The notes under the pieces were generated by a model, which did no database searches, was not told where the DNA came from, and saw only the letters and a program-made list of their open reading frames with translations. Below are positions 4,902 to 48,421 of a stretch of 64,000 nucleotides of DNA, piece after piece. A program made the position numbers and the translations under genes. The DNA is taken from positions 77,175 to 141,174 of the IMG/VR virus record IMGVR_UViG_3300028601_000023; one strand, written 5' to 3'. The DNA comes from a virus. Lineage: Duplodnaviria; Caudoviricetes. Every line of letters begins with the position of its first letter. Positions within the stretch are counted from its first letter, which is position 1.

Positions 4902-5622
4902 GGAATTCATAGAAGAAGCAACTAAGGAAATGACCCTCAAACAGGTCATGAAGAAAATCAATGACGGCTACTGGGAAGCCGAACAAGATATGAAAGTTGG
5001 TCGTCACGCTATCCTTAGAGATATCAGGACCAAGAAACGGATCACTGTCTATATCAAGGAAGATCTAAACGAAGAATTTAAGACGGGTGATTACGTAAAA
5101 CACACAAAAAGTGGCGTTGTTGGCAAGATTGTGAATGTTGCCAGCGATAAGGCCGCCGTCGATGTCAAATGGAATAGTGGAAAAACCACTACAACTGATC
5201 CAAAGAAATTGACTAAATTCAATCTAAAGGAAGATCTAATCGAAGCTGCTCAAGAAAAAGATCTTGATCCTAAGAAGAAGATCGTTGTCAAAGGTGTCAA
5301 GGGAGCAAAGTCCAAGCCTTTCGTAAAGAAATTCAGAAATATGGACGCATACGAAAAGTGGACTGATTCTGATGAGTTTGGTGATTTCGAAGTTCATCAG
5401 ATTATGAATGAGTCTGATGAAGATAATTATATCAATGAAGCTGAGGACGTACACAACTTTATTAGTGACATGATCATGGACTTCGAAAAGAAACTTGAAA
5501 GTGTCATTTCAAAGGGTGCTAAGTCGATTGATCCAACTGTTCTTAAAGAACTCAAGAAACTTGAAGCTGAATGTGGCAAAGTTCGCAAAGGTAAATTACA
5601 CGACGTTAGACCTGGGCGTTAA
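4888..5622 (+). CDS. putative internal head protein (polyprotein-like) with capsid-targeting sequence
   Basis: N-terminus MKTFKEFIEE resembles the T4 IP targeting sequence MKTYQEFIAE; several internal (L/I/M)xE sites. Confidence 0.7.
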   Translation: MKTFKEFIEEATKEMTLKQVMKKINDGYWEAEQDMKVGRHAILRDIRTKKRITVYIKEDLNEEFKTGDYVKHTKSGVVGKIVNVASDKAAVDVKWNSGKTTTTDPKKLTKFNLKEDLIEAAQEKDLDPKKKIVVKGVKGAKSKPFVKKFRNMDAYEKWTDSDEFGDFEVHQIMNESDEDNYINEAEDVHNFISDMIMDFEKKLESVISKGAKSIDPTVLKELKKLEAECGKVRKGKLHDVRPGR

Positions 5623-7244: not shown

Positions 7245-7282
7245 AGACTTTCAAGCGCCGCAACGAAACAGTCAATAATATC

Positions 7283-7304
7283 GGGACCTTACGGTCCCTT
7301 TTTT
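7283..7304 (+). terminator. intrinsic terminator
   Basis: GGGACC-TTAC-GGTCCC followed by T6. Confidence 0.85.
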
Positions 7305-7315
7305 AATTTTCTGCT

Positions 7316-7830
7316 AATTTTGTTGGTAAATATACAGCAATTTTCGTCAATTTCGGGAATAGTCAATTAATTCAACAGGTTAGATGAAATATAGACACAC
7401 TCTAAGTGGTTGATTTAATTCAACAAAAAAAGATACCGTTATTTTCCACAACATTTTTCGTAAATCACAAAAGTGAACCGTTTAAAGTAGACAGCTGAAG
7501 GTTTTCTATATGTATTTCGCTGAATATTCTACTAGAGAAGAGCGAAGCTAAATCTTTCCACTGAGGGAACCGAAGTGGATGTCCGCAAGGACAAAACTCT
7601 GATGAGATTTTATTAGATCACCGGAGTGAATACTTAAAGTAGACAGCTGAAAGTATTTTTAGACTAAAACTTTAGAGTCTCTAAGGTGGGCGGTAAAAAG
7701 TATATCTAAATCGTTCTATGAAATTCTATTTCAATTAATGATCAACCAATTTCTTCTATTGCCTCTAATTGTTCCCTAGCGGGAAATGGCCTCGGTTCCC
7801 TTCGGCCAAAGTTTTAATGGTTTCTATAAA
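7316..7830. repeat. non-coding hairpin element, copy A (candidate replication origin or structured RNA)
   Basis: 7316-7463 matches 44097-44244 (143/148) and 7540-7680 matches 44320-44460 (140/141); ORF-free; multiple hairpins. Confidence 0.9.
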
Positions 7831-7997
7831 TATTTCTATGGAAACCTTCTATCAAATTTTCAACTAAGTTTCTATTAATTTTTATTCATTATTTCTATGT
7901 TATATCCATGTTTTATAGCTCCAAACTATATTTGCTTGTGACTAAGTATTCAAGATTATTGAAAATGATGAATTCGGCAACAATTTCAGCTATTCTA

Positions 7998-8026
7998 TTG
8001 ACAACTGAAGAATTTTGGAGTATATT
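7998..8026 (+). promoter_or_regulatory. sigma70-type promoter
   Basis: TTGACA-N17-TATATT upstream of nrdG. Confidence 0.8.
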
Positions 8027-8048
8027 AATCTTTTAACGGAGGATATCT

Positions 8049-23988: not shown

Positions 23989-24067
23989 CTCCCTCTCGCC
24001 TAACTTGGTTATGGCTCTCGGTTTGGAGCCGAGTATAATGCTTGTTCGAATCAAGCGGGGGAGACCA
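23989..24067 (+). tRNA. tRNA-Pro(UGG)
   Basis: CTCCCTC/GGGGGAG acceptor, CTCGG-TTTGGAG-CCGAG, GTTCGAATC, CCA. Confidence 0.9.
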
Positions 24068-24070
24068 TAT

Positions 24071-24142
24071 TCCGAAATAGCTCAATGGCAGAGCACGTGC
24101 CTGTTAAGCACAAGGTTTCTGGTTCGAGTCCAGATTTCGGAG
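24071..24142 (+). tRNA. tRNA-Asn(GUU)
   Basis: TCCGAAA/TTTCGGA acceptor, loop CTGTTAA, GGTTCGAGTCC; CCA not encoded. Confidence 0.9.
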
Positions 24143-24147
24143 CACAC

Positions 24148-24225
24148 GTCCTCGTAGTCCAACTGGTAGGAGACAAGAGATTCAAGATCTCTACAGTGTC
24201 TGTTCGAATCAGACCGGGGATACCA
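24148..24225 (+). tRNA. tRNA-Leu(CAA), short variable loop
   Basis: AGAGA-TTCAAGA-TCTCT, GTTCGAATC, ACCA. Confidence 0.85.
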
Positions 24226-24236
24226 GTAAAAATTAT

Positions 24237-24311
24237 GCCGGTATAGTTCAGTGGTAGAACGCTTGTTTTGTAATCAAGATGTCGGGAGTTCAAATCTCTC
24301 TATCGGCTCCA
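24237..24311 (+). tRNA. tRNA-Thr(UGU)
   Basis: GCCGGTA/TATCGGC acceptor, loop TTTGTAA, TCCA. Confidence 0.9.
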
Positions 24312-24320
24312 ATAAATTTC

Positions 24321-24398
24321 GGCCCTTTATCCCAACTGGTAGAGGAAGCTGCTTTAGAAGCAGTAAATGTCTCAGTTCGAATCTGAGAGGGGCTACCA
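24321..24398 (+). tRNA. tRNA-Leu(UAG), short variable loop
   Basis: GCTGC-TTTAGAA-GCAGT, GTTCGAATC, ACCA. Confidence 0.85.
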
Positions 24399-24402
24399 TT
24401 TC

Positions 24403-24478
24403 GTGTCTGAACCCAAATAGCGAGGGCACTGGCTGTGACCCAGTTGGCTAGTGGGAGCGTTACCCACCGGACACTCCA
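24403..24478 (+). tRNA. tRNA-His(GUG), atypical
   Basis: GTGTCTG/CGGACAC acceptor, ACTGG-CTGTGAC-CCAGT, T-loop AGCGTTA, TCCA. Confidence 0.75.
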
Positions 24479-24479
24479 A

Positions 24480-24592
24480 ATTTTGACCACTCTTAGCAGA
24501 GGAGCGTAGATACGGCGGATTGTCTTGCGGCACTTATCGATTACGTCACATCATCCAAGAGTAAGCAGACATGAGGGATGATTGGTCAAAAT
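24480..24592 (+). ncRNA. putative structured small RNA
   Basis: 10-bp closing stem ATTTTGACCA/TGGTCAAAAT enclosing three hairpins; GC-richer than its surroundings; within the tRNA cluster. Confidence 0.5.
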
Positions 24593-24597
24593 ATCTA

Positions 24598-24626
24598 TTG
24601 ACATTTTATCTTAACTTAGATATTCT
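24598..24626 (+). promoter_or_regulatory. early promoter
   Basis: TTGACA-N17-TATTCT upstream of tRNA(CAU). Confidence 0.8.
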
Positions 24627-24646
24627 ATTCTCATCTGAAACAATAT

Positions 24647-24722
24647 TGCCGTATAGTTCAATTGGTAGAATCCCCGGCTCATAACCGGACAGTTACATGT
24701 TCAAGTCATGTTGCGGCAACCA
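24647..24722 (+). tRNA. tRNA-Met or Ile2 (CAU)
   Basis: TGCCGTA/TGCGGCA acceptor, loop CTCATAA, GTTCAAGTC, ACCA. Confidence 0.88.
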
Positions 24723-27975: not shown

Positions 27976-28599
27976 ATGAGTTATTCTATCATTGATTTAA
28001 GGTACAATTCTATAACTGAAATCTTCAGCTATGACAGACTATTGCTTTGGATCAATGATAGTTGTTGTCATTGGCAGACTTGGAGAGGAGACAGAAAACA
28101 ACTTCTCAAATATACAATTGCTAATAATCCAAACGAATTCAGCTGGACCTATGAACGTCAAGTCAGACAGTATTTGATTCTTGATGAATATGACAGAATT
28201 ATATCTCGTGAGATTTTGACTGATGAAATTCTTTCCAAGACTAAAGAATGGTTTGGTACTATTAGAAAAGAACGAAATCGGGAACAGCTTGCAGCCTGGA
28301 AAGCAAAAAGAGAAATCATAGACGAACAATGGGAATTCTGGTCTTCTAGAAGAGATCGTTACAAATATTATGATTATCATCGTCATCCTCGGACTACACA
28401 AGAAAGATCTTTTGCTGTAGACGTGGATCACAAACCATATGTTAGAGGCAAAAGATCTCTTCCAAATCTCCCAGACTGGTATCAAGATATTCCGATTTAT
28501 ATTCACAGAAAGAAATCGTGGAAAGCACTGACAAAAAGAAAAAGACAGTGGAATCCTATTGACAAATCTATAGAATCAGAATATTCTAAACTCAATTGA
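27976..28599 (+). CDS. conserved hypothetical basic protein
   Basis: PRTTQERS..RGKRS..LPDWYQD..KSWK..KRKRQW. Confidence 0.7.
   Translation: MSYSIIDLRYNSITEIFSYDRLLLWINDSCCHWQTWRGDRKQLLKYTIANNPNEFSWTYERQVRQYLILDEYDRIISREILTDEILSKTKEWFGTIRKERNREQLAAWKAKREIIDEQWEFWSSRRDRYKYYDYHRHPRTTQERSFAVDVDHKPYVRGKRSLPNLPDWYQDIPIYIHRKKSWKALTKRKRQWNPIDKSIESEYSKLN
28559..28587 (+). promoter_or_regulatory. early promoter
   Basis: TTGACA-N17-TATTCT plus AAACTCAATTGAACGGAACAA leader. Confidence 0.85.
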
Positions 28600-28626
28600 A
28601 CGGAACAATAAACCAAGGAGTTTCAA

Positions 28627-28953
28627 ATGGGAAAGTATGATCATCAGGGTTCGTTTACATTTTGGGGAAATCGTATCTATCCTTTACCAGATGGTCTCGG
28701 AATCAACGTCAATTACAGCATGTACAGCTCAAGCATAGACGATATTTCTATTGATGAACTTGGAATCGTGTTTGATAATCTTTCTGAAGTAGATGCAAAA
28801 GATTTTTCCGATGTAGATTCTGTTATCAAGGCTAAAGATAATCCGCCCCATAAAGATGAAAGCCATATTATGATCAAATTGTTTTCATTGATCTCTGAAC
28901 TTCAGATCGAAGCATGGGAAGATTTTCAATCAAAAGGAAGGTTATCTAAATGA
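28627..28953 (+). CDS. hypothetical early protein
   Basis: AAGGAG SD. Confidence 0.7.
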   Translation: MGKYDHQGSFTFWGNRIYPLPDGLGINVNYSMYSSSIDDISIDELGIVFDNLSEVDAKDFSDVDSVIKAKDNPPHKDESHIMIKLFSLISELQIEAWEDFQSKGRLSK

Positions 28954-29222
28954 CTACTTTTACTTATGCAGATATGGTCAATACTGCTACAATGTTGGAA
29001 CTCTTTACTTTGTTAGAAGCTGATCCAAATGTTTCTAGTAGAATTGATGATTTTTTCTTTATCTATATCGATGGGCATTATGATATTGCTCCGATGCACT
29101 ATCCTATGCAATCTCTTTGCAAGTTTCTTGAAAATCCCGGCACCGTTGACGAAATTGTCGAGTTGTATGGATTAGAAATGATTGATCTTATTCGGTTCAT
29201 GTGTGGAGATTGTCTATTTTGA
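28950..29222 (+). CDS. hypothetical protein
   Basis: ATGA overlap with the upstream gene. Confidence 0.65.
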   Translation: MTTFTYADMVNTATMLELFTLLEADPNVSSRIDDFFFIYIDGHYDIAPMHYPMQSLCKFLENPGTVDEIVELYGLEMIDLIRFMCGDCLF

Positions 29223-34578: not shown

Positions 34579-36321
34579 ATGATTCATGTGATTATTCCTG
34601 CGGCTGGCCTTGGCACTCGGATGGCTCCTTTGTCATCTGGGTTATCCAAAGCTCTAATTCCAGTAAACGGTAAACCCATCATATCTTGGATAGTAAATGA
34701 ACTGTCTAAATATGATGATCAGATTGGTTCTATTAATATAATTGAATCTAAACTTGAAGACATTAGTCAATACTTTGACAATATTCAGACTAACGGAATT
34801 GCTTCTAAGATTGCCTGTATTCAGCAGGATCCTGCTTTCGGTGGACCTCTTGGAGCTATCTATTCTGCTATTACAGAAATTCATCTTGGTGTTGAAGATT
34901 CAGTACTTGTCTGGCTTGGTGATACTATCTTTGTTGATAGTGAATTTATTTTTGATAAAGAATCCTTTGTTGTAGTAGATAAACCAGTAAAGGATACTGA
35001 AAGGTGGTGTGTTGCTTCTATCAACTATAAAGATCCTCGACTTATCAACGAACTGTTTGATAAAGTCAATTTTGAAGATCTGTATGATCAGAACGAACTT
35101 TACTACCCACTGATCGGAATTTACTATTTCAAAAATGCTCTGAACTTTGTTGATGCATGCAATTTTACTATTGAAAACAAGAATGGAAAAATAGGAAATG
35201 AATATCAGATTGCTCCATGTATCAATAGATATGCACATGAAAAACATGTAGAAGTCTGTCATGCTGAAGATCGTTGGTATGATTGCGGAGAATTAGATAC
35301 TTATTATAAATCTTGTGCTAGGTTGTTGAATCTTTCAGCAAGGGAACAGACACTAATCTCAATTGATATTGATAAGCAGTGTATTGAAAAAGAATCTAAT
35401 CCGATGTCCAATAACTATATTACAAATTGCCACAAGCTTGATGCTGAAGTATCTTGGTTCAATGCTGCATCTGGTTATCAGCAAGCATTTGTTCCAACAG
35501 TATTAGATCATTGTGTTGATAAAAGTATGCATAGTCCAAAGATATGTTCCTATATCATGACATATGAACCAGGTAAAACTATGTCAGATATGTGGGTCTA
35601 TGAAAAGATATCTACATCCGCGTGGAAATCTATTCTAACAAAACTGATCAATACTATTCAGACGGTATTCCATCAGAATGACAATGAATCCGATGAGATC
35701 TATAAGAATATTGTAAAAGAATCCGATCGAAAGAGATACTTACAAGACTTAGAAAGAAGACTGCATCAAAGAGTACTTGACATTAATGAAAATCATGTTG
35801 TAATTTCTGATGATGAACTAGAACTGATCGGAAGATGGATTGCTAAGACTATAGAAAGATTGCAGCTAACAAACAGTGTAAAAAATATTATTGTTCAAGG
35901 ATCTTGTAATCGTCTCGTTCATGGAGATATGCACCTTGGCAATATTCTGTATGATGGTTTGTCTGGGAAGATTACACTAATTGATCCAAGAGATCCTGCT
36001 GGGGTATTTGTTGACAAAAGATATGATTACGCAAAACTAATGCAAAGTCTATTTACTGGCTACCATTCTATTATGGATAATATGTATAAAGTTGTAGATG
36101 ATACTATTATATTTGATTCACGTACACAAGCAATAATGTCTGAAAGCATGTGGGTACTGAAACAGAAATTGTCTAATGATGAATTCTATGCATGTCAAAT
36201 GCTTTCTGTCTTATTGCTATTAACTTGTATACCGTTTCATACGGATAACCCACAGCGACAGAAAGCATTTTATATGCGGTCAATTAACTTGATGCAATCT
36301 AATGCATATATGTTTCTTTAA
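34579..36321 (+). CDS. sugar-phosphate nucleotidyltransferase fused to an APH-like phosphotransferase
   Basis: IPAAGLGTRM..KALIPVNGKP, WLGD, WYDCG; C-terminal VHGDMHLGNIL, LIDPR, YDYAKL. Confidence 0.88.
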   Translation: MIHVIIPAAGLGTRMAPLSSGLSKALIPVNGKPIISWIVNELSKYDDQIGSINIIESKLEDISQYFDNIQTNGIASKIACIQQDPAFGGPLGAIYSAITEIHLGVEDSVLVWLGDTIFVDSEFIFDKESFVVVDKPVKDTERWCVASINYKDPRLINELFDKVNFEDLYDQNELYYPLIGIYYFKNALNFVDACNFTIENKNGKIGNEYQIAPCINRYAHEKHVEVCHAEDRWYDCGELDTYYKSCARLLNLSAREQTLISIDIDKQCIEKESNPMSNNYITNCHKLDAEVSWFNAASGYQQAFVPTVLDHCVDKSMHSPKICSYIMTYEPGKTMSDMWVYEKISTSAWKSILTKLINTIQTVFHQNDNESDEIYKNIVKESDRKRYLQDLERRLHQRVLDINENHVVISDDELELIGRWIAKTIERLQLTNSVKNIIVQGSCNRLVHGDMHLGNILYDGLSGKITLIDPRDPAGVFVDKRYDYAKLMQSLFTGYHSIMDNMYKVVDDTIIFDSRTQAIMSESMWVLKQKLSNDEFYACQMLSVLLLLTCIPFHTDNPQRQKAFYMRSINLMQSNAYMFL

Positions 36322-42937: not shown

Positions 42938-43489
42938 CTAACCTCTGTTTCTATCTTTCCATACTGAAGTAGCAGTTGCCTTGTGAAAGTGAGCTAATGG
43001 AAGTTCAATTATATTAATCCATTCGTTCATCGGTACTTCAATCAATTTTGTTCTCATATGCGAAAAAAGATATCTTTTAAAGCAGTGCTTCCATCTTGAA
43101 TGAGATAACCCAAGAAGCTTCTTATAAGATATAGTAATATTATTTATACTACGACCGGATACAAGTTTTTGAAAAGGAACTAATTGTTCTAATAGATATT
43201 GACGTTCTTTAATCGGAAGATAGTGAAAGTTCAGACCATAGAATCCTCCGGGAGCAGCATCAACCAAAATGATACATGGGTTAGAATCCCAGTACGGCAA
43301 TTTGTCTTTAGTCTTTGCGTCATAAACCATTAGATACATTCTACCAACTTTTGGTCTAGAGACCTGTTTGACGTTTGGCATTTCATTCTTAATCTTATTG
43401 AATAACCAGTTCATAGATCTACGAGCATTTCTTGATACCGTAGATTTAGTAATCCCACCAAGGACTTCTTTTGCAAATTGATTTATCAT
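42938..43489 (-). CDS. 2: DNA end protector gp2
   Basis: GRMYLMVYDAKTKDKLPYWD..P, YGLNFHYLP, CFKRYL. Confidence 0.92.
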   Translation of the reverse strand: MINQFAKEVLGGITKSTVSRNARRSMNWLFNKIKNEMPNVKQVSRPKVGRMYLMVYDAKTKDKLPYWDSNPCIILVDAAPGGFYGLNFHYLPIKERQYLLEQLVPFQKLVSGRSINNITISYKKLLGLSHSRWKHCFKRYLFSHMRTKLIEVPMNEWINIIELPLAHFHKATATSVWKDRNRG

Positions 43490-44001
43490 TTCTTTTTACC
43501 TTTAGCTTTAAATAAATGTCTTTCAGTAACTACACAGAATTCAAATCCTCTCATCTGACAATACTTTTTGGCTGCTTCCCATTTTGCTTGGTTGACCATG
43601 TAAGTTTTCATCTGTTCTTTGAATTGTGCTTTTGCTTTTTCTGTTAGCAATCGTTTGACGACCGGAGTAATAGTCTGAGCAAACGGTTTGATCTCGACTA
43701 AGAATTTCTTTATAGTTCCATCCTTCTGTCTAACAGCAATAAAGAAGTCGATGAAATACCGATGTTGTTTGTTATCTATAGGAGATATGTACGGAATGAC
43801 AACTTCTTCTGATGCGTATTGAACAATAGCAGGATTCTCATCACACCACTGAATGAATTTTCGCTCCCATGAAGATCTATAGACGATGGATGTAGGATTA
43901 CCCATATATTTAGACGGATTCTTCGGACGATAGTATCCCTGATGATATCGGCTCTTCCGGGATATCGTTGGTTTTTTTGTAGTACTGTTGATATGACTCA
44001 T
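43486..44001 (-). CDS. 4: head completion nuclease gp4
   Basis: YRPKNPSKYMG..IVYRSSWE, SEE..IPY, RYFIDF, VEIKP, NQAKW; ATG at 44001. Confidence 0.92.
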   Translation of the reverse strand: MSHINSTTKKPTISRKSRYHQGYYRPKNPSKYMGNPTSIVYRSSWERKFIQWCDENPAIVQYASEEVVIPYISPIDNKQHRYFIDFFIAVRQKDGTIKKFLVEIKPFAQTITPVVKRLLTEKAKAQFKEQMKTYMVNQAKWEAAKKYCQMRGFEFCVVTERHLFKAKGKKK

Positions 44002-44096
44002 GTATATATTTATTGACGGCAAAAACCGCGGCAAAAGCACCTTTAAAGCAATGACCTATAACCTGCTTATATAATTAATGTTTTTGAATTTTCATC

Positions 44097-44761
44097 AATT
44101 TTGTTGGTAAATATACAGCAATTTTCGTCAATTTCGGGAATAGTCAATTAATTCAACAGGTTAGATGAAATATAGACACACTCTAAGTGGTTGATTTAAT
44201 TCAACATTTGTAGATACCGTTATTTTCCACAACATTTTTCGTAATTGCGGAGCAAATGACTATAAAGTGGCTATAGCTGAAGTTTTATTCTGTAGATTTT
44301 TATGGAAACTAACTGAAAGGAGCGAAGCTAAATCTTTCCACTGAGGGAACCGAAGTGGATGTCCGCAAGGACAAAACTCTGATGAGATTTTATTAGATCA
44401 CCGGAGTGAATACCTAAAGTAGACAGCTGAAAGTATTTTTAGACTAAAACTTTAGAGTCTTCATGGAATGATAGAAATAATTTAAAAGTATATCTATCAG
44501 CTTATAGTTATATTGACGAGCTTCTAATTGATAGATGAATTTCAATATCAACTAATTGATCATTCTCCGGTTCCCTCCGAATGATACCGTCACTAGTTCC
44601 TAGTGACAATGGTTTTAATGGTTCCTTTAAAATTCTATTCTAAATACCTTTATTGTTCGTTATTTCTAGATCCAAAACCAATAGGTTTTTAATCTAAGCA
44701 ATTAAATTTATTCTAATCTCATTCTCCGGTTCCCTCCGAATGACCGTCGCCAGTTCCTGGC
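44097..44761. repeat. non-coding hairpin element, copy B
   Basis: Two blocks nearly identical to copy A, plus a twice-repeated CATTCTCCGGTTCCCTCCGAATG (44561-44583, 44720-44742). Confidence 0.9.
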
Positions 44762-44997
44762 TCCGATATTTTGTTGGTCCTTATTTACTATTCTTGAAGT
44801 TTATAAATATCAATTAACGATTCTTTTAAATTTATTCTATTATTTTATATTATGTCCCTCCAAAACCAATTTAAACTGAATGTAAAGTATTGAAATTGGA
44901 AGGCCAGGCCAAAACTGATTGACAATTGGATGATGGTTGATATATGAATTGTTATTCAGTCTAATGAAACAAATATCAACCTTGGCTGAATTGCCTA

Positions 44998-45026
44998 TTG
45001 ACAGATATCTAGAAATGTTATAAATA
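44998..45026 (+). promoter_or_regulatory. promoter(s) of the polymerase-like gene
   Basis: TTGACA 44998-45003 and TATAAATA 45019-45026; another TTGACA-N16-TATATG at 44919. Confidence 0.5.
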
Positions 45027-45054
45027 TATCAAATCTTGTGGAATTAGGAGTCAT

Positions 45055-46896
45055 ATGTTTGTTTCCAGAAAACATCTAGCCGAACATTTGTCAGCAATAG
45101 AAGAGAATGAACTTTCAGCCGAAATCTTTATTGCTGATAAAATTCTCAATCATCCTGTTTTTTGTGACATTATCAACCCAGATCACAATTTTTCAACCGA
45201 TACCGTCTTTAATAAAGCCATCTATGATAAACTTGTTGCTGCTGCAACGCTAACAACAATATATCATTATCTTCGTGCGTCTAATATATCAATGTATGAG
45301 CAGTTTGCTGTAACTCCTTATATATTGAGCAAGTTCTATAGATTTGATAGAGATGTATTTCTCGGCTATGGTGCCGGAATTACACGCATGACAAAAGAAG
45401 ATAAGCCGTCATCTTATTTAAGTCCTTTTATAACTCATGTACAGCGCGGATACTATTTCTATAAGAACTGTCCTCAAAATAAGCTTCCAGAATATAGATT
45501 CACACAAGAAGCACTTGATCTATTGTTGACTATTGATTCAGATGATACTAAATATATCAAAATAGATCTTAAAAAGCATTATACTGCAGTTGCTGAATAT
45601 TCTTCAGAAATTTCGCGCCGTGGACAATTTGTAAATAAAGTTGAAGTTCCAGTCTTGGTATATAATGGAAAAGAATATACTAGAGGTAATGTTAGTTCTG
45701 CTATTGCTCATTTCTCCAAACAAAAAGGTCATCCATACGTTATTTGGAATAAAGAATATAAAAATGAAATACTTCCGAAGATGATTGAAGAATTTTATTC
45801 TCTTTATTCGTTTCCGGAAGTAAAAGTTCCGACCTCTCCAACAGCTAAAGAACTATTTGAATCTTCTACTATTAAAGTATATTCATATGACGAGTTCAAA
45901 TCTGAGTTTTATGAGATCGCTTTAGGAACTCCATGGTTGACAAAACAGAAAAATACTGTTTTTGAACATACCGCTCAGCTCGATCTATCAAACATTGAAG
46001 ATTTAATTGCTAACGAATCAAATAACTTACATGTAATCGCAACACTTGAACTAATTAAGTATGAGGCGTTCAAGACTAACAATAATATTAAGCTCGAATA
46101 TCATAGATCTCAGCATGGAAGACTCTACCAATCAGGACCGTCTCTGCAAATGTTACCCAAAGCAATTCGCAAGAAACTGTTGTCCAAATATACTGAAATT
46201 GATATTGCTTCATCAGTCTATTCTATTGTTTATAATTATGCAAAGAACAATAACTACACTGGTTCAATGGACCATATCACCAATTATGTAGATGATCCTC
46301 ATGGATTTCGAAAGAAGCTCCATTCTAATCTATCTGAAATTGATCCAACTGTGACGGAAGATTATGTTAAAACTAATCTGATTGCTGTTGCTTATGGTGC
46401 TAATTATAATGCTAACTATATTGGGTTTGATGCTCGTAAGAAATGTCCTCAGACTATAGCTGTCACGACTTCCGGCTATACTATGACAGATGTCCCAGAA
46501 CGGTTAGCAGACAACAAAGACTTCCAGAATCTCATTGCAGATTTCCGTGGAATTGTCAAATGGTATATAGATAATCATAAAGTAAAGACAGAAACTGGAA
46601 CATATTTTGAGAACGCTCTTGGTGCTAAGATGAAACTTGAACGTGGAACATCCCTTGGCAAGAAATTGGCTCATATGTATCAGGCTCTAGAAGTCATTAT
46701 TCTCGAAAAAATGGCATCAGTCCCAGTACCGAAGTATGGAAATCTATCGCTGAAGAGTACTCGAAACGGTATTGGTCTAATGCTTCATGATGGAATCTAC
46801 GTATTGAAAGAACATTTTGAAGGTATTCCAGATGTTAGTAAGTATTTCAACGAGTTCATCAAGAATGCTTTGGGATATGATCTGAGATTTGATTGA
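45055..46896 (+). CDS. family-A polymerase-like protein (Pol I/T7-RNAP palm, no recognisable exonuclease)
   Basis: HGRLYQSGPSLQMLPK, motif A EIDIASSV, motif B KTNLIAVAYG, HMYQALE, motif C LMLHDGIYV. Confidence 0.75.
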   Translation: MFVSRKHLAEHLSAIEENELSAEIFIADKILNHPVFCDIINPDHNFSTDTVFNKAIYDKLVAAATLTTIYHYLRASNISMYEQFAVTPYILSKFYRFDRDVFLGYGAGITRMTKEDKPSSYLSPFITHVQRGYYFYKNCPQNKLPEYRFTQEALDLLLTIDSDDTKYIKIDLKKHYTAVAEYSSEISRRGQFVNKVEVPVLVYNGKEYTRGNVSSAIAHFSKQKGHPYVIWNKEYKNEILPKMIEEFYSLYSFPEVKVPTSPTAKELFESSTIKVYSYDEFKSEFYEIALGTPWLTKQKNTVFEHTAQLDLSNIEDLIANESNNLHVIATLELIKYEAFKTNNNIKLEYHRSQHGRLYQSGPSLQMLPKAIRKKLLSKYTEIDIASSVYSIVYNYAKNNNYTGSMDHITNYVDDPHGFRKKLHSNLSEIDPTVTEDYVKTNLIAVAYGANYNANYIGFDARKKCPQTIAVTTSGYTMTDVPERLADNKDFQNLIADFRGIVKWYIDNHKVKTETGTYFENALGAKMKLERGTSLGKKLAHMYQALEVIILEKMASVPVPKYGNLSLKSTRNGIGLMLHDGIYVLKEHFEGIPDVSKYFNEFIKNALGYDLRFD

Positions 46897-46950: not shown

Positions 46951-47883
46951 TTGAAACGACCAAGTATTCATGTCAGAGGTAGAAATGCGACCGAAGCATT
47001 TGAGAACGCAATTGTAACTTTAAAGGACGACCCGGATTTTATTTGTTCCCCTAGAGGACAGAAGATCCACGAATGCATTAATGCCGTAGTAGAAGTTGAT
47101 GACATTCATGACAATGTTGTATGGACACCAGATCGAAAGATCTCTCTAAAGTACTTAGTTGCTGAATTGTGTTGGTATCTATCTGGAGACCAATCTAGAA
47201 TCGGCGCCAATGCTATTGCTCATTATGCAAAGTTCTGGGATTCTATTCGTAATCCAGACGGAACGCTTAATTCTAACTATGGACATTATATCTTTAAACG
47301 TATGGGATCAGTTCTTCCATATTTTACTGATGCACACACTGATTACTTTGAAAAAAATCAATTTCAATACGTAGTAGAAAAACTAAAAGAAGATAAAGAT
47401 TCTCGTCAAGCGATTATCAATATTAATTCTATTCATCACAAACGATTTCCAACAAAAGACTTTCCTTGTACTACATCTATTCAGTTTATGATCCGTGAAG
47501 ATGTACTCTATATGACTGTTCATATGAGATCTTGTGATATTGTTCTTGGGTACTGCAATGATGTCTTTCAGTTCTGTCATATTCAGAAATTAGTATGGCG
47601 AGAATTGTCTGAGGTTTATCCAGCCCTAGAATGCGGATCTTATACACTTATGGCAAATTCTTTGCATCTCTATGAACGTCATTTTGATATGGCTGATAAG
47701 ATTAGTGAAGCAGATGGAACCGAAACTCCTGTTATGAACTCTACTGATTATTATTGTCCTACACTTGAAGAATATGAATCGTTACTTGGATTTGAAGCTG
47801 CTTTGCGTCTACATGGAAATGCAGCAAATCTAACATACAAACCAGAACTCATTCAGAAATATACAACTTGGTTAAGGGGTTAA
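46951..47883 (+). CDS. thymidylate-synthase-family dCMP-modifying enzyme (gp42-like hydroxymethylase or hydroxylase)
   Basis: AELCWYL, NSNYG, DSRQA, DFPCT, MRSCDIVLGYCND (Asp at the E. coli N177 position), SLHLYERH. Confidence 0.85.
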   Translation: MKRPSIHVRGRNATEAFENAIVTLKDDPDFICSPRGQKIHECINAVVEVDDIHDNVVWTPDRKISLKYLVAELCWYLSGDQSRIGANAIAHYAKFWDSIRNPDGTLNSNYGHYIFKRMGSVLPYFTDAHTDYFEKNQFQYVVEKLKEDKDSRQAIININSIHHKRFPTKDFPCTTSIQFMIREDVLYMTVHMRSCDIVLGYCNDVFQFCHIQKLVWRELSEVYPALECGSYTLMANSLHLYERHFDMADKISEADGTETPVMNSTDYYCPTLEEYESLLGFEAALRLHGNAANLTYKPELIQKYTTWLRG

Positions 47884-47884
47884 A

Positions 47885-48421
47885 ATGGCTATTATCGTTG
47901 AAGGAATTGACAATATTGGTAAGTCTACGTTCATTCAGAAACTTCGGAATGAAGCCTTTCCCTGGCCTGTAGTGCATTCATCTAAACCAGAAAAACTAAA
48001 GGTTCTAGGAGATTCCGAATCTCTTTATCAGATGCATTACTTTTCTACATGGTTTAATATGATGTCAGCAAGAAAATCTAATGTTATCTTTGATCGTCTA
48101 CATCTCGGTGAATGGGTTTATGCTCCTCTGTATCGTGGATATACTCCAACGTTTATTCCTGTTCTGCCTAGAGCTCGTCTTGATACTATTCTTGTTCTAC
48201 TAAAAGCAAATGATTTCTCCCTGATCGTTGATGATGGAAAATCTATTGATGCTAGTAATATGAAAAAAGAACAAGAATTGTTTCTAGATGCTTTCAAAAA
48301 GGATGAGATCTGCTTCAATAAACAGATCATTGAGATTGATTGTGACGGCGTTCGAAAGACTGTAGACGAATTGTATGATGAATTTATGAAGGTCTGGAAA
48401 CAAATGCTTCAGTCAATGTAA
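47885..48421 (+). CDS. dNMP (thymidylate-like) kinase
   Basis: IVEGIDNIGKST P-loop; FDRLHLGEWVYAPLYRG. Confidence 0.85.
   Translation: MAIIVEGIDNIGKSTFIQKLRNEAFPWPVVHSSKPEKLKVLGDSESLYQMHYFSTWFNMMSARKSNVIFDRLHLGEWVYAPLYRGYTPTFIPVLPRARLDTILVLLKANDFSLIVDDGKSIDASNMKKEQELFLDAFKKDEICFNKQIIEIDCDGVRKTVDELYDEFMKVWKQMLQSM

What the first reader, a model, noticed from the sequence alone, without database searches (positions are those of the whole stretch)
45055..46896. Pol A-like protein with RNA-polymerase-like substitutions
Seen: GRLYQSGPSLQMLP parallels Pol I GRLSSxxPNLQNIP. Motif A reads DIASSV where Pol I has DYSQIE, so the steric-gate Glu is replaced by Val. Motif C is HDG rather than HDE. No exonuclease motifs are recognisable and the roughly 330-aa N-terminal region is unassigned. 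Known: T7 RNAP has Gly at the gate position and HDS in motif C. Inference: it may incorporate ribonucleotides, acting as a primase or mini-RNAP, with the N-terminus binding the hairpins.
Basis: partly seen in the sequence, partly recalled or inferred. Interest (0 to 1): 0.8.

Follow-up and report, generated by a model that had tools for sequence, protein, structure and literature searches.

The report
Mini family-A polymerase beside hairpin repeats
A T4-like phage that already has a full replication machine also carries a stripped-down, proofreading-free relative of DNA polymerase I / T7 RNA polymerase (TV-Pol type) that, in several distantly related phages, sits just downstream of conserved DNA hairpins, so it probably starts nucleic-acid chains at those hairpins, though nobody has tested it.

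Summary
The 613-aa ORF (45055-46896, +) has an invariant Arg hairpin, motif A Asp, motif B K-x7-[Y/F]-G and motif C HDG across 29 relatives. Residues 300-613 fold with high confidence as a family-A palm plus fingers (Klenow and Pol theta Z 14.2; T7 RNAP Z 12.1). There is no exonuclease, the thumb is two short helices, and the N-terminal 300 aa remain unassigned.

It is not a new enzyme class. Its best structural matches are virophage 'DNA replication proteins' of the TV-Pol family (Iyer et al. 2008). Its architecture equals divPolA2 (Yutin et al. 2024). This scan has met TV-Pol-type enzymes in at least 15 other genomes. No sequence model (Pfam, PHROGs, NCBIfam, PDB) detects this clade.

The phage has its own PolB, clamp, loader, helicase, gp61 primase and gp32, so this is an accessory enzyme.

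What appears new is the setting. The gene follows a ~1 kb non-coding element present three times in the genome. In six of nine lineages the upstream DNA carries long-stem hairpins with ~13-nt loops of a shared pyrimidine-triplet pattern. Long contigs repeatedly break there.

Best reading (about 0.4): a hairpin-directed primase-polymerase. Whether it uses rNTPs or dNTPs is untested.

The parts
45055..46896 (+). ORF of 613 aa: a minimal TV-Pol-like family-A polymerase. It has an RBS (AGGAG) at 45046-45050.
   Evidence: dN/dS is 0.10 against L001. There are 60 relatives among 1.84 billion cluster representatives.
45055..45954 (+). N-terminal region (aa 1-300): mixed alpha/beta, poorly conserved, fold unassigned. 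There is only a weak winged-helix hint for aa ~25-165.
   Evidence: pLDDT is 57 when folded alone. The best VIA Z is 3.8 to MukF, TubR and MarR-type proteins. dN/dS is 0.17.
45955..46893 (+). Polymerase domain (aa 301-613): a two-helix thumb stub, the Arg beta-hairpin, an RRM palm and fingers.
   Evidence: pLDDT is above 90. PDB, BFVD and Atlas matches are. dN/dS is 0.02.
46117..46122 (+). G355-R356, the invariant Arg of the beta-hairpin. It corresponds to Pol I R668 and T7 RNAP R425.
46201..46218 (+). Motif A, D383-IASS-V388. The Asp is invariant. Position +5 (Glu in Pol I, Gly in T7 RNAP) is I/T/V/F/A/S across the family.
46369..46398 (+). Motif B (O-helix), K439-x7-Y447-G448. K and G are invariant, and Y447 is Y20/F8/C1. 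The position of Pol I R754 (residue 435) is not Arg (Y15, E4, K3, L3, R1).
46786..46794 (+). Motif C, H578-D579-G580. H and D are invariant, and G is present in 28 of 29.
44041..45054 (.). Copy B of a ~0.8-1 kb ORF-free element that occurs three times in the genome, all in the same orientation. It lies directly upstream of the gene.
   Evidence: There is no Rfam match. It is 91.9% conserved against L001 while dS is 0.31.
44097..44244 (.). Block 1, about 148 nt, essentially identical in all three copies apart from a 5-6-nt patch.
44320..44433 (.). Block 2, about 114 nt, nearly identical in all three copies. It holds three adjacent hairpins. One stem differs between copies but keeps its pairing.
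44337..44359 (.). Purine-loop ('R') hairpin: 6-bp stem and 11-nt loop. The loop is complementary over 10-13 nt to the loops of the two Y hairpins.
   Evidence: (I3, I4).
44559..44585 (.). Pyrimidine-loop ('Y') hairpin 1: 7-bp stem and 13-nt loop TCC-GG-TTC-CC-TCC.
   Evidence: (D1).
44589..44607 (.). Hairpin with an 8-bp stem and a 3-nt TTC loop, followed by a T-rich tract. It scores as terminator-like.
44719..44743 (.). Y hairpin 2, with the same 13-nt loop and a 6-bp stem. It is followed at 44749-44761 by a 5-bp stem with a TTC loop.
44919..44946 (+). Early-type promoter-like site, TTGACA-N16-TATATG. Copies A and C have TTGACA-N17-TATATT at the same place.
   Evidence: Read. It was not reported by the consensus scan because the last base of the -10 hexamer is G.
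45019..45026 (+). TATAAATA, the T4 late-promoter consensus, 29 nt before the ATG.
   Evidence: 21 copies on + against 2 on -. Eleven lie 5-60 nt upstream of a same-strand ORF, against 1.4 expected.
7279..8048 (.). Copy C of the non-coding element. Copy A lies outside the window at genome 28127-29181.

Best explanation
Identity (about 0.9 confident). The gene encodes a catalytically intact, exonuclease-free, thumb-reduced polymerase of the Pol A / T7-RNAP superfamily. It is of the minimal 'TV-Pol / divPolA2' kind, with an extra 300-aa N-terminal region. It is carried as an accessory by T4-like and other large myoviruses that already have a complete replisome.

Mechanism (inferred, about 0.4). 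It is a site-directed primase-polymerase. The conserved hairpins in the adjacent non-coding element become single-stranded or extruded. These hairpins have long stems and ~13-nt loops with three Y-T/C-C triplets at 5-nt spacing, and they occur on both strands. The enzyme recognises them, presumably through its N-terminal region, and starts a short chain de novo with its two-metal active site (D383, D579; R356 holding the template or primer; K439 and Y447 holding the incoming nucleotide). The 3' end is then handed to the phage PolB and clamp. With three copies of the element spread over the genome, this would give three dedicated initiation sites (origins) that do not depend on host RNA polymerase R-loops.

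Whether the product is RNA or DNA is open. The loss of the Glu gate and of the aromatic at K+4 predicts weak discrimination against rNTPs.
For: Shown:

(1) Fold and invariant catalytic residues, and strong purifying selection.

(2) The closest structures are virophage and polinton-like 'DNA replication proteins' and uncharacterised phage proteins (BFVD E 1e-9 to 1e-7, rmsd 4.4-5.3 A). These rank ahead of true PolAs at about 1e-5. Atlas neighbours are fused to D5_N and DUF5906 helicase modules. That is the TV-Pol family, which was predicted to be prim-pols (PMC2579912).

(3) One TV-Pol, CCPol, has been shown to prime de novo with a partner protein, preferentially at a site next to its operon that serves as the origin (PMC7581432).

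(4) The phage has PolB, clamp, clamp loader, DnaB-type helicase, gp61 primase, gp32 and UvsX. The enzyme is therefore neither the replicase nor the general primase.

(5) Gene and element are linked across lineages. The gene follows an ORF-free gap of 0.67-1.1 kb in this phage, in L012 and in Desulfovibrio phage 7757. A loop pattern fixed was then found in a held-out lineage, L028/L029, about 470 nt upstream of the gene. The generalised motif gives 3 hits in the 2.8 kb of gaps against 0 in the other 138 kb of this genome. In other loci it gives 9 hits in 9.4 kb upstream against 2 (one site) in 87 kb elsewhere. It gives 0 in 50 kb of a divPolA2 phage and about 0.1 per shuffled genome. Stems are unrelated between phages while the loops are alike; for example, the L032 and L007 loops are 11/13 identical.

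(6) Five long contigs (15-71 kb; four lineages) end 286-840 nt upstream of the gene. By my arithmetic about 0.2 such cases would be expected from random breaks. This is what a multi-copy element causes, and in this genome the element is present three times.

(7) The element is more conserved than synonymous sites and folds far better than shuffles on either strand (z -5.0 and -4.0).
Against: There is no biochemistry for any member of this clade.

The generalised loop motif was defined after seeing the data. The pre-fixed strict pattern hit only one of about five held-out lineages. Three of nine lineages with usable upstream sequence lack the motif: L027 has no gap at all, L031 has none, and L012 is only a near miss.

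The N-terminal region has no demonstrable DNA-binding fold.

The Arg of the RxxxK motif, which holds the incoming triphosphate in Pol I and T7 RNAP, is missing. That could mean an altered reaction.

The gene carries a late-promoter-like TATAAATA and, in this phage, sits between late structural genes. This is not what one expects of an early origin initiator, although an early-type promoter is also present.

T4 itself initiates without such an enzyme.

The elements each end in an early-type promoter, so they could be regulatory or ncRNA regions that merely share module junctions with the gene.

CCPol needs an SSB-like partner, and no partner is evident here.
Confidence: 0.4

Rival explanations
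1. It is a specialised DNA polymerase for repair, gap filling or lesion or modified-base bypass, as Yutin et al. proposed for divPolA2. It extends existing primers with dNTPs, and the upstream hairpins are unrelated regulatory DNA.
For: The architecture is the same as divPolA2: an active palm, no homologous thumb, no exonuclease, an unknown N-terminal domain, and a regular PolB also present (PMC11348598). The best sequence link to any described family is to divPolA2 (hhalign E 0.011 on the shared GRxY...Q.LPK..R...D.KA signature). The neighbours are pyrimidine-nucleotide enzymes in several lineages: a thymidylate-synthase homologue plus a kinase here and in L001/L007, and dUTPase/dCD in L012 and L028. 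The Pol I minor-groove readers are kept (R356 for R668, Q365 for Q677, Q543 for Q849).
Against: It does not explain the cross-lineage association with motif hairpins or the contig breaks. The divPolA2 representative locus has no such hairpins. Both Pol I sugar selectors, the equivalents of E710 and F762, are lost.
Confidence: 0.2
2. It is a hairpin-promoter-specific RNA polymerase (N4 vRNAP-like), made late and perhaps delivered with the virion. It would transcribe outward from the hairpins on single-stranded or supercoiled DNA.
For: The motif traits are RNAP-like: GRxY as in T7 RNAP R425-V-Y427, small residues at D+3/+4, no Glu gate, an A-Y-G-[A/S] motif B without an aromatic at K+4, and HD followed by a small residue. 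VIA Z is 12.1 to T7 RNAP, 12.3 to mitochondrial RNAP and 8.2 to N4 mini-vRNAP. N4 vRNAP uses hairpin promoters (PMC4496689, abstract seen; promoter details are from my own knowledge). The gene has a late-promoter motif. The hairpins lie at the head of gene blocks, and purine-loop hairpins on opposite strands would point outward.
Against: The domain is about 310 aa, with no specificity loop, intercalating hairpin or promoter-binding domain of T7-like RNAPs. There is no match to PF00940. The R627 equivalent is absent. The Y639 equivalent is Phe in 8 of 29 members. T4-like phages use host RNAP, and this genome shows both early sigma-70-like and T4 late-type promoters. The best structural kin are replication proteins, not RNAPs.
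Confidence: 0.15
3. The gene and its hairpin DNA form a selfish mobile module, and the enzyme is a TV-Pol-type replicative-transposon polymerase. The extra non-coding copies would be non-autonomous derivatives.
For: TV-Pols are typical of transposons and small mobile elements (PMC2579912). The gene's neighbours differ between lineages: baseplate genes, topoisomerase II, RNase H, dUTPase. The non-coding element is multi-copy with two blocks that are about 100% identical. The family is patchy: 60 clusters in 1.84 billion, and one cultured phage in 50,697 records.
Against: No integrase, resolvase, transposase or D5 helicase is next to any of about 12 loci. No terminal repeats bracket the gene. 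Close relatives keep the same position (L001, L007). The three copies share the same orientation and each ends in a promoter for downstream genes.
Confidence: 0.12
4. It is a catalytically dead polymerase fold reused as a DNA or RNA-binding or structural protein.
For: The Arg of RxxxK and the third carboxylate (Glu of HDE) are missing. The gene lies among structural genes in this phage.
Against: Both metal-binding Asp, the hairpin Arg, the O-helix Lys and the Y/F-G are invariant or nearly so over 29 sequences at about 22% identity. dN/dS in the domain is 0.02.
Confidence: 0.03

Closest known systems
TV-Pol (Transposon-Virus polymerase) family, Iyer, Abhiman & Aravind 2008 (PMC2579912); e.g. 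the N-terminal domain of Sputnik V13 / Zamilon 'DNA replication protein'
   Same: It has the minimal Pol A / T7-RNAP core: a two-helix thumb, a beta-hairpin with an absolutely conserved Arg, an RRM palm with two conserved Asp, and HTH-type fingers with the conserved Lys. It is never linked to a nuclease, some members have an extra N-terminal globular domain, and it occurs in viruses that may have other polymerases. These are the best structural matches (BFVD E 1e-9 to 1e-7).
   Different: There is no detectable sequence similarity. The family profile finds nothing in Ma-LMM01, a named TV-Pol host, and no library model hits. The Arg of RxxxK is not conserved. There is no D5-like helicase, resolvase, integrase or transposase nearby. 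The hosts are T4-like and large myoviruses. The gene is associated with a hairpin-bearing multi-copy non-coding element.
divPolA2, Yutin et al. 2024 (PMC11348598); representative AUR84708 of Vibrio phage 1.063.O
   Same: It is encoded in addition to a regular PolB. It has an active palm, no thumb homologous to other DNAPs, no exonuclease, an N-terminal globular domain of unknown fold and a variable neighbourhood. It shares the signature GRxY...Q.LPK..R...D.KA...S.LY (hhalign E 0.011).
   Different: The sequence link is marginal (42 columns, probability 4%). BLASTP and tblastn find nothing. divPolA2 is 430 aa against 613 aa here. Its locus has only a 124-nt upstream spacer and no motif hairpins in 50 kb. 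Its authors favour a repair role.
CCPol-MP primase-polymerase of SCCmec (Bebel et al. 2020, PMC7581432; Rice 2022, bioRxiv 10.1101/2022.12.02.518924)
   Same: It is a small A-family polymerase with a shortened thumb and no working exonuclease, carried as an accessory by a mobile genome. It initiates DNA chains de novo near a specific site adjacent to its operon. This is the only biochemical precedent for the proposed mechanism.
   Different: CCPol keeps the Pol I sugar selectors (E174 for E710 and F225 for F762) and uses dNTPs. It needs a separate OB-fold partner (MP) and is linked to a helicase (Cch2). It is found in Firmicutes elements. Here both selectors are lost, no partner or helicase is adjacent, and the putative site is a hairpin array rather than iterons.
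Single-subunit RNA polymerases that read DNA hairpins: N4 vRNAP (PMC4496689) and mitochondrial RNAP acting as primase at OriL (cited in PMC2579912)
   Same: They belong to the same superfamily fold (Z 8-12). They share GRxY, HD followed by a small residue, and the lack of a Glu gate. They initiate de novo at stem-loops in single-stranded DNA.
   Different: Those enzymes are 900-3500 aa with dedicated promoter-binding elements. There is no PF00940 match here. The hairpins here have ~13-nt loops, not the 3-nt loops of N4 promoters (the latter from my own knowledge).
Canonical family-A DNA polymerases (Pol I Klenow, Taq, Bst, Pol theta, T7 gp5)
   Same: The palm and fingers topology is shared, as is the order of the TGR block and motifs A, B and C. 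The 'P-x-L-Q-x-x-P' and 'Q-G' blocks are also shared.
   Different: It fails PF00476 at E up to 10. It has no exonuclease domain. The thumb is reduced from about 120 residues to about 40. E710, F762, R754 and E883 are all replaced. It is not among the 19 PolA subfamilies of Czernecki et al. 2023 (PMC10201439).

Membership tests
TV-Pol (Iyer et al. 2008) | N-terminal thumb unit built on two antiparallel helices | tested here: met
   In the model, two helices (314-320 and 325-340) are the only elements between strand 301-308 and the Arg hairpin. The Klenow alignment starts at residue 537.
TV-Pol (Iyer et al. 2008) | [quoted passage not shown] | tested here: met
   Strands 344-351 and 357-360 form the hairpin, and R356 is invariant in 29 of 29.
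TV-Pol (Iyer et al. 2008) | RRM-like palm with two conserved metal-binding Asp | tested here: met
   D383 and D579 are invariant. The palm superposes on Klenow and T7 RNAP.
TV-Pol (Iyer et al. 2008) | Fingers with an RxxxK motif | tested here: not met
   K439 is invariant, but position K-4 reads Y15, E4, K3, L3, R1, P1, I1, M1. A nearly invariant R419 lies 20 residues upstream and might substitute; that was not tested.
TV-Pol (Iyer et al. 2008) | No fusion or linkage to a nuclease domain | tested here: met
   No exonuclease domain was found by Pfam or by fold. No nuclease neighbour is conserved.
TV-Pol (Iyer et al. 2008) | Detectable sequence relationship to named members | tested here: inconclusive
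   The profile A2 finds no match in Ma-LMM01 at E up to 10. The structural matches to virophage TV-Pol-helicase proteins are the best in BFVD. No TV-Pol HMM was available to me.
divPolA2 (Yutin et al. 2024) | Second, diverged PolA with an active palm, no homologous thumb, no exonuclease and an unknown N-terminal domain, encoded beside a regular PolB | tested here: met
   compared with the description in PMC11348598.
divPolA2 (Yutin et al. 2024) | Sequence similarity to the representative AUR84708 | tested here: inconclusive
   hhalign gives E 0.011 over 42 columns covering the Arg hairpin to motif A. BLASTP is not significant.
Family-A DNA polymerase (Pfam PF00476) | Match to the DNA_pol_A model | tested here: not met
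   There is no hit at E up to 10 for the protein, for 29 relatives or for the genome.
Family-A DNA polymerase (Pfam PF00476) | Motif A D-x-x-x-x-E steric gate and an aromatic at K+4 of motif B | tested here: not met
   Position 388 is I/T/V/F/A/S and position 443 is T17, N11, I1. The references were verified.
T7-like single-subunit RNA polymerase (Pfam PF00940) | Match to the RNA_pol model, and the promoter-recognition elements | tested here: inconclusive
   There is no PF00940 hit, but the control search rang in none of the control genomes. The domain of about 310 aa leaves no room for a specificity loop or an N-terminal promoter-binding domain of the T7 kind. The fold Z is 12.1.
T7-like single-subunit RNA polymerase (Pfam PF00940) | R627-x3-K631 and a Y639 that reads the 2'-OH | tested here: not met
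   The Arg is absent. The Tyr position reads Y20, F8, C1.
CCPol-MP type primase | Adjacent small OB-fold partner and a helicase gene | tested here: not met
   There is none in this window or in most loci. Only the high-GC subgroup has a 75-87-aa ORF overlapping the start of the gene, and it has no Pfam match. Its fold was not predicted.

The most novel reading that the evidence does not exclude
T4-like and related large myoviruses possess a previously unrecognised kind of replication origin. It is a multi-copy non-coding element displaying hairpins with ~13-nt pyrimidine-triplet loops on both strands. It is fired by a dedicated, thumb-less TV-Pol-like primase-polymerase that recognises the hairpin loop in single-stranded DNA, in the manner of N4 vRNAP or mitochondrial RNAP at OriL. 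The enzyme lays down a primer, possibly of ribonucleotides or mixed nucleotides, for the PolB replisome. That would make initiation independent of host RNA polymerase.
Probability: 0.3. Interest if true: 0.8.

Novelty: new variant of a known kind. Interest (0 to 1): 0.55.

Why it matters
Minimal TV-Pol-type polymerases were predicted in 2008 to be primase-polymerases, and only one distant member (CCPol) has been tested. This clade is invisible to Pfam, PHROGs and NCBIfam, and it occurs in phages that already have a full T4-type replisome. So it must do something that replisome cannot do.

The comparative link to a conserved hairpin-loop motif gives a concrete, cheap experiment, which most TV-Pol findings lack. 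One can assay the protein with hairpin oligonucleotides and with rNTPs or dNTPs.

If the enzyme does prime at hairpins, it would define a new origin type for T4-like phages. It would also be a second, independent example of Pol A-fold primases, and a compact hairpin-directed polymerase of possible use as a tool. It would also explain a recurrent assembly break in metagenomic phage contigs.

If it turns out to be a primer-dependent dNTP polymerase, it is simply one more divergent accessory PolA.

Tried and rejected
(1) Sequence-library assignment. Pfam, PHROGs, NCBIfam and PDB sequences gave nothing for the protein, for 10-29 relatives or for profiles.

(2) The word-index homologue search found only the 94% twin. 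IMG/VR had no confirmed relative. The metagenome scan then worked with a tighter alignment.

(3) 'The phage lacks a conventional primase, so this is its primase'. I rejected this. PF13155 and PF01807 found nothing, but T4 gp61 itself does not hit those models. A gp61 homologue is present at genome 55682-56668 (E 9e-34).

(4) Helicase fusion as a sequence bridge to TV-Pol. Ten weaker relatives carry no Pfam domain at all.

(5) A known RNA family in the upstream element. Rfam gave nothing at E up to 1.

(6) RNA versus DNA role of the element from folding. Both strands fold equally well, so this is uninformative.

(7) The strict loop pattern as a universal signature. It fails in L012, L024 and L032, which are near misses, and in L027 and L031.

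(8) Motif hairpins at the ends of the Desulfovibrio phage record. There are none; the ends share a different 86-nt inverted repeat.

(9) Multi-copy test of the element in the 352-kb and 52-kb contigs. Those records are not held.

(10) Expression or molecule ends from public reads.

(11) N-terminal domain assignment. The separate fold had pLDDT 57 and the best Z was 3.8.

(12) Timing from promoters. Both an early-type and a late-type signal are present, so timing does not discriminate.
Full report
**1. What is there.**

The ORF at 45055-46896 (+) encodes 613 aa, preceded by AGGAG four bases before the ATG. The window belongs to a 141-kb IMG/VR virus record estimated at about 80% complete. The virus is T4-like. 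It encodes:

- gp32, gp53-type baseplate, PhoH and a thymidylate-synthase homologue
- gp4 head completion and gp2 end protector
- PolB
- a DnaB-type helicase
- the gp45 clamp and gp44 loader
- a gp61-type primase

The protein under study is therefore an accessory. It is neither the replicase nor the general primase.

**2. The observation.**

An exhaustive HMMER pass over 1.84 billion cluster representatives found only 60 relatives. Only the C-terminal ~300 aa is conserved.

In 29 aligned members (17-30% identity), the invariant columns are Y349, G355, R356, R372, D383, K439, G448, N520, E546, H578 and D579. Column tallies show the following:

- The block reads GRxY, with Y in 27 of 29.
- Position D+5 of motif A is I/T/V/F/A/S, never Glu.
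- K439+4 is T/N/I, never aromatic.
- The Tyr before the invariant Gly is Y20/F8/C1.
- Motif C is HDG in 28 of 29.
- The position of Pol I R754 / T7 RNAP R627 is not Arg.

The gene is under strong purifying selection against a 94% relative. dN/dS is 0.10 overall, 0.02 in the polymerase domain and 0.17 in the N-terminal region.

**3. Fold.**

With the 29-sequence alignment, AlphaFold2 gives pLDDT above 90 for residues 300-613.

- Foldseek against the PDB returns only family-A DNA polymerases at the top.
- VIA-align over 48,161 chains gives Klenow Z 14.2 (271 residues, 3.8 A), Pol theta 14.2, Pol nu 12.7, yeast mitochondrial RNAP 12.3, T7 RNAP 12.1, T7 DNAP 11.7 and N4 mini-vRNAP 8.2. The fold is therefore certain, but it does not separate DNA from RNA polymerases.
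- Only two short helices lie between the first strand of the domain and the Arg hairpin. Klenow has about 120 residues of thumb there.
- No exonuclease domain exists.
- The N-terminal 300 aa fold poorly (pLDDT 57 alone). Their best matches are winged-helix proteins at Z up to 3.8-4.5, which is within noise.

**4. Which known kind.**

No sequence library recognises the clade. Against predicted viral structures, the best matches are not PolAs. They include the Zamilon virophage 'DNA replication protein', a Qinghai Lake virophage 'helicase/primase/polymerase', a Pyramimonas orientalis virus 'origin-binding protein domain' protein, and uncharacterised Caudovirales and Dickeya phage proteins. These score E 1e-9 to 1e-7 with rmsd 4.4-5.3 A. 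ESM Atlas neighbours are fused to D5_N and DUF5906 helicase modules.

This is the TV-Pol family of Iyer, Abhiman and Aravind (PMC2579912). That family is defined by four features:

1. a two-helix thumb
2. an Arg hairpin
3. two palm Asp
4. fingers with RxxxK

It is never linked to a nuclease and was predicted to be a primase-polymerase. Three of the four core features are met here. The Arg of RxxxK is not.

A sequence bridge could not be shown. The profile finds the Desulfovibrio phage homologue at E 1e-36, but it finds nothing in Ma-LMM01, a TV-Pol host named in the paper.

It is a second, diverged PolA with an active palm, no homologous thumb, no exonuclease and an unknown N-terminal domain, found beside a regular PolB. 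That is the same architecture. hhalign of the family against its representative gives E 0.011 over the Arg-hairpin-to-motif-A stretch, with a shared GRxY...Q.LPK..R...D.KA signature that Pol I and T7 RNAP lack. The link is marginal but is the best to any described family.

SCCmec CCPol, counted among TV-Pols in 2008, is the one tested relative. With its partner MP it primes de novo with dNTPs near the element's origin. It retains the Pol I Glu and Phe sugar selectors (PMC7581432).

The 19 PolA subfamilies of Czernecki et al. contain nothing like this clade.

**5. The surroundings, where the interest lies.**

The 1,014 bases upstream (44041-45054) have no ORF above 35 aa. The three largest ORF-free gaps of the genome are homologous and co-oriented. 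They lie at 28127-29181, at 84453-85222 (window 7279-8048) and at this gap. Two blocks of about 148 and 114 nt are essentially identical in all three copies. They are followed by variable numbers of hairpin modules, and each copy ends in an early-type promoter.

The element contains three motif hairpins:

- a hairpin with an 11-nt purine loop (44337-44359)
- a hairpin with a 13-nt pyrimidine loop complementary to it (44559-44585)
- a second hairpin with the same 13-nt pyrimidine loop (44719-44743)

**6. The same arrangement elsewhere.**

The Desulfovibrio phage homologue follows a 1.1-kb hairpin-rich gap. L012 has a 0.67-kb gap.

Long-stem hairpins with 12-14-nt loops of the form Y-Y-C, two bases, T-K-C, two bases, T-C (or its complement) lie upstream of the gene in L006, L007, L024, L028/L029 and L032. 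The stems are unrelated between phages. The usual order is purine-loop hairpin, then pyrimidine-loop hairpin 100-220 nt later, then the gene 400-600 nt further on.

I fixed a strict pattern before fetching more loci. It then failed on four lineages, three of which had under 185 nt of upstream sequence. It succeeded on one new lineage, L028/L029, at the expected place.

A generalised pattern, which is post hoc, gives the following:

| Sequence | Length | Hits |
|---|---|---|
| This genome, the three gaps | 2.8 kb | 3 |
| This genome, the rest | 138 kb | 0 |
| Other loci, upstream of the gene | 9.4 kb | 9 |
| Other loci, elsewhere | 87 kb | 2 (one site) |
| A divPolA2 phage | 50 kb | 0 |
| Shuffled genomes | 141 kb each | about 0.1 per genome |

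Three lineages lack the motif: L027, L031 and L012 (a near miss).

Independently, five long contigs from four lineages stop 286-840 nt upstream of the gene. That is the behaviour expected of a multi-copy repeat. The L001 contig begins inside the repeated hairpin module.

The upstream 439 nt are 91.9% identical between two phages whose synonymous sites differ by dS 0.31. The region folds with z -5.0 and -4.0 on the two strands.

**7. Mechanism.**

What is shown:

- an intact two-metal polymerase core of the minimal TV-Pol kind
- accessory status in the genome
- a conserved physical association with a constrained, multi-copy, hairpin-bearing element

What is inferred:

- The enzyme recognises those hairpins in single-stranded form.
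- It starts a chain that the PolB replisome extends, so the three elements act as origins.

The precedents are CCPol-MP (priming next to its origin), and N4 vRNAP and mitochondrial RNAP (hairpin-directed initiation). The loss of the Glu gate and of the aromatic at K+4, together with GRxY and HDG, suggests poor exclusion of rNTPs. However, the Tyr/Phe variation at the Y639 position and the missing Arg argue against a dedicated RNA polymerase.

Timing does not help. TATAAATA, which behaves as a real promoter-like signal in this genome (11 of 23 copies lie 5-60 nt before a same-strand ORF, against 1.4 expected), sits 29 nt before the ATG. An early-type TTGACA-N16-TATATG lies 110 nt upstream.

I put the hairpin-directed primase-polymerase reading at about 0.4. 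The rivals are a repair or specialised DNA polymerase (0.2), a hairpin-promoter RNA polymerase (0.15), a mobile-module replicase (0.12) and an inactive protein (0.03).

**8. Novelty.**

The enzyme class is known (TV-Pol 2008, divPolA2 2024). Other follow-ups in this scan reached the same class for proteins in at least 15 other genomes.

This clade is a sequence-undetectable variant that lacks the RxxxK Arg and both Pol I sugar selectors. It is found almost only in metagenomes; one cultured phage among 50,697 records carries it, and that record is unannotated.

I did not find the conserved hairpin-loop element that accompanies it described in the papers I read. I therefore file it as a new variant of a known kind, of moderate interest, with a directly testable hypothesis.

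Noticed in passing
window 7279-8048; genome 28127-29181 (outside the window): These are two further copies of the ~1 kb non-coding element. They are co-oriented, share two blocks that are about 100% identical, and each ends in TTGACA-N17-TATATT. The three copies lie roughly 56 and 37 kb apart. Identical direct repeats of about 150 nt in a recombination-proficient T4-like phage are themselves unusual.
   Followed up: partly
window 45019-45026 and genome-wide: TATAAATA (the T4 late-promoter consensus) occurs 21 times on the + strand against 2 on the - strand. Eleven copies lie 5-60 nt upstream of a same-strand ORF start (1.4 expected), including before the PAAR and baseplate genes and before this polymerase gene.
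   Followed up: partly
genome C1:55682-56668 (outside the window): The phage's gp61-type primase (30% identical to T4 gp61) is invisible to the Pfam models Toprim_2 and Zn_ribbon_DnaG, and so is T4 gp61 itself. Absence of those Pfam hits must not be read as absence of a primase in T4-like phages.
   Followed up: yes
window 46951-48421 and 34579-36321: A thymidylate-synthase homologue (310 aa) and a small P-loop kinase-like protein lie directly downstream of the polymerase gene. A fused NTP-transferase/APH-type kinase (580 aa) lies elsewhere in the window. Together they suggest a modified pyrimidine in the DNA. In other lineages the polymerase gene is followed by dUTPase/dCD instead.
   Followed up: no
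L024:408-632, L028:2550-2777, L032:2373-2636: In the high-GC subgroup (733-749-aa proteins), a 74-87-aa ORF overlaps the start of the polymerase gene, which suggests translational coupling. It has no Pfam match. It could be a partner subunit analogous to CCPol's MP. I did not fold it.
   Followed up: no
L015:2-87 and L014:1498-1583 (ends of OR395405); L006 about 5060-5130: The two ends of the Desulfovibrio phage 7757 record are an 86-nt inverted repeat (87% identity). Part of it occurs once more, about 120-180 nt upstream of that phage's polymerase-like gene. This could be an assembly break at a repeat or a real terminal feature.
   Followed up: partly
window 43486-44040 (-): The gp4-type head completion protein (PHROG 'head closure', E 3e-56) also matches Pfam Tn7_TnsA-like_N (E 2.5e-23). 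It should not be mistaken for a transposon endonuclease.
   Followed up: yes
window 23989-24722: There is a cluster of six tRNA genes: Pro, Asn, Leu-CAA, Thr, Leu-TAG and Met.
   Followed up: no
L031:2806-5193: In one lineage the polymerase-like gene is followed by a SocA/Panacea-domain protein and a MoxR-type AAA_5 ATPase. An AAA_5 ATPase also follows copy A of the non-coding element in this genome, at C1:31571-32761.
   Followed up: no
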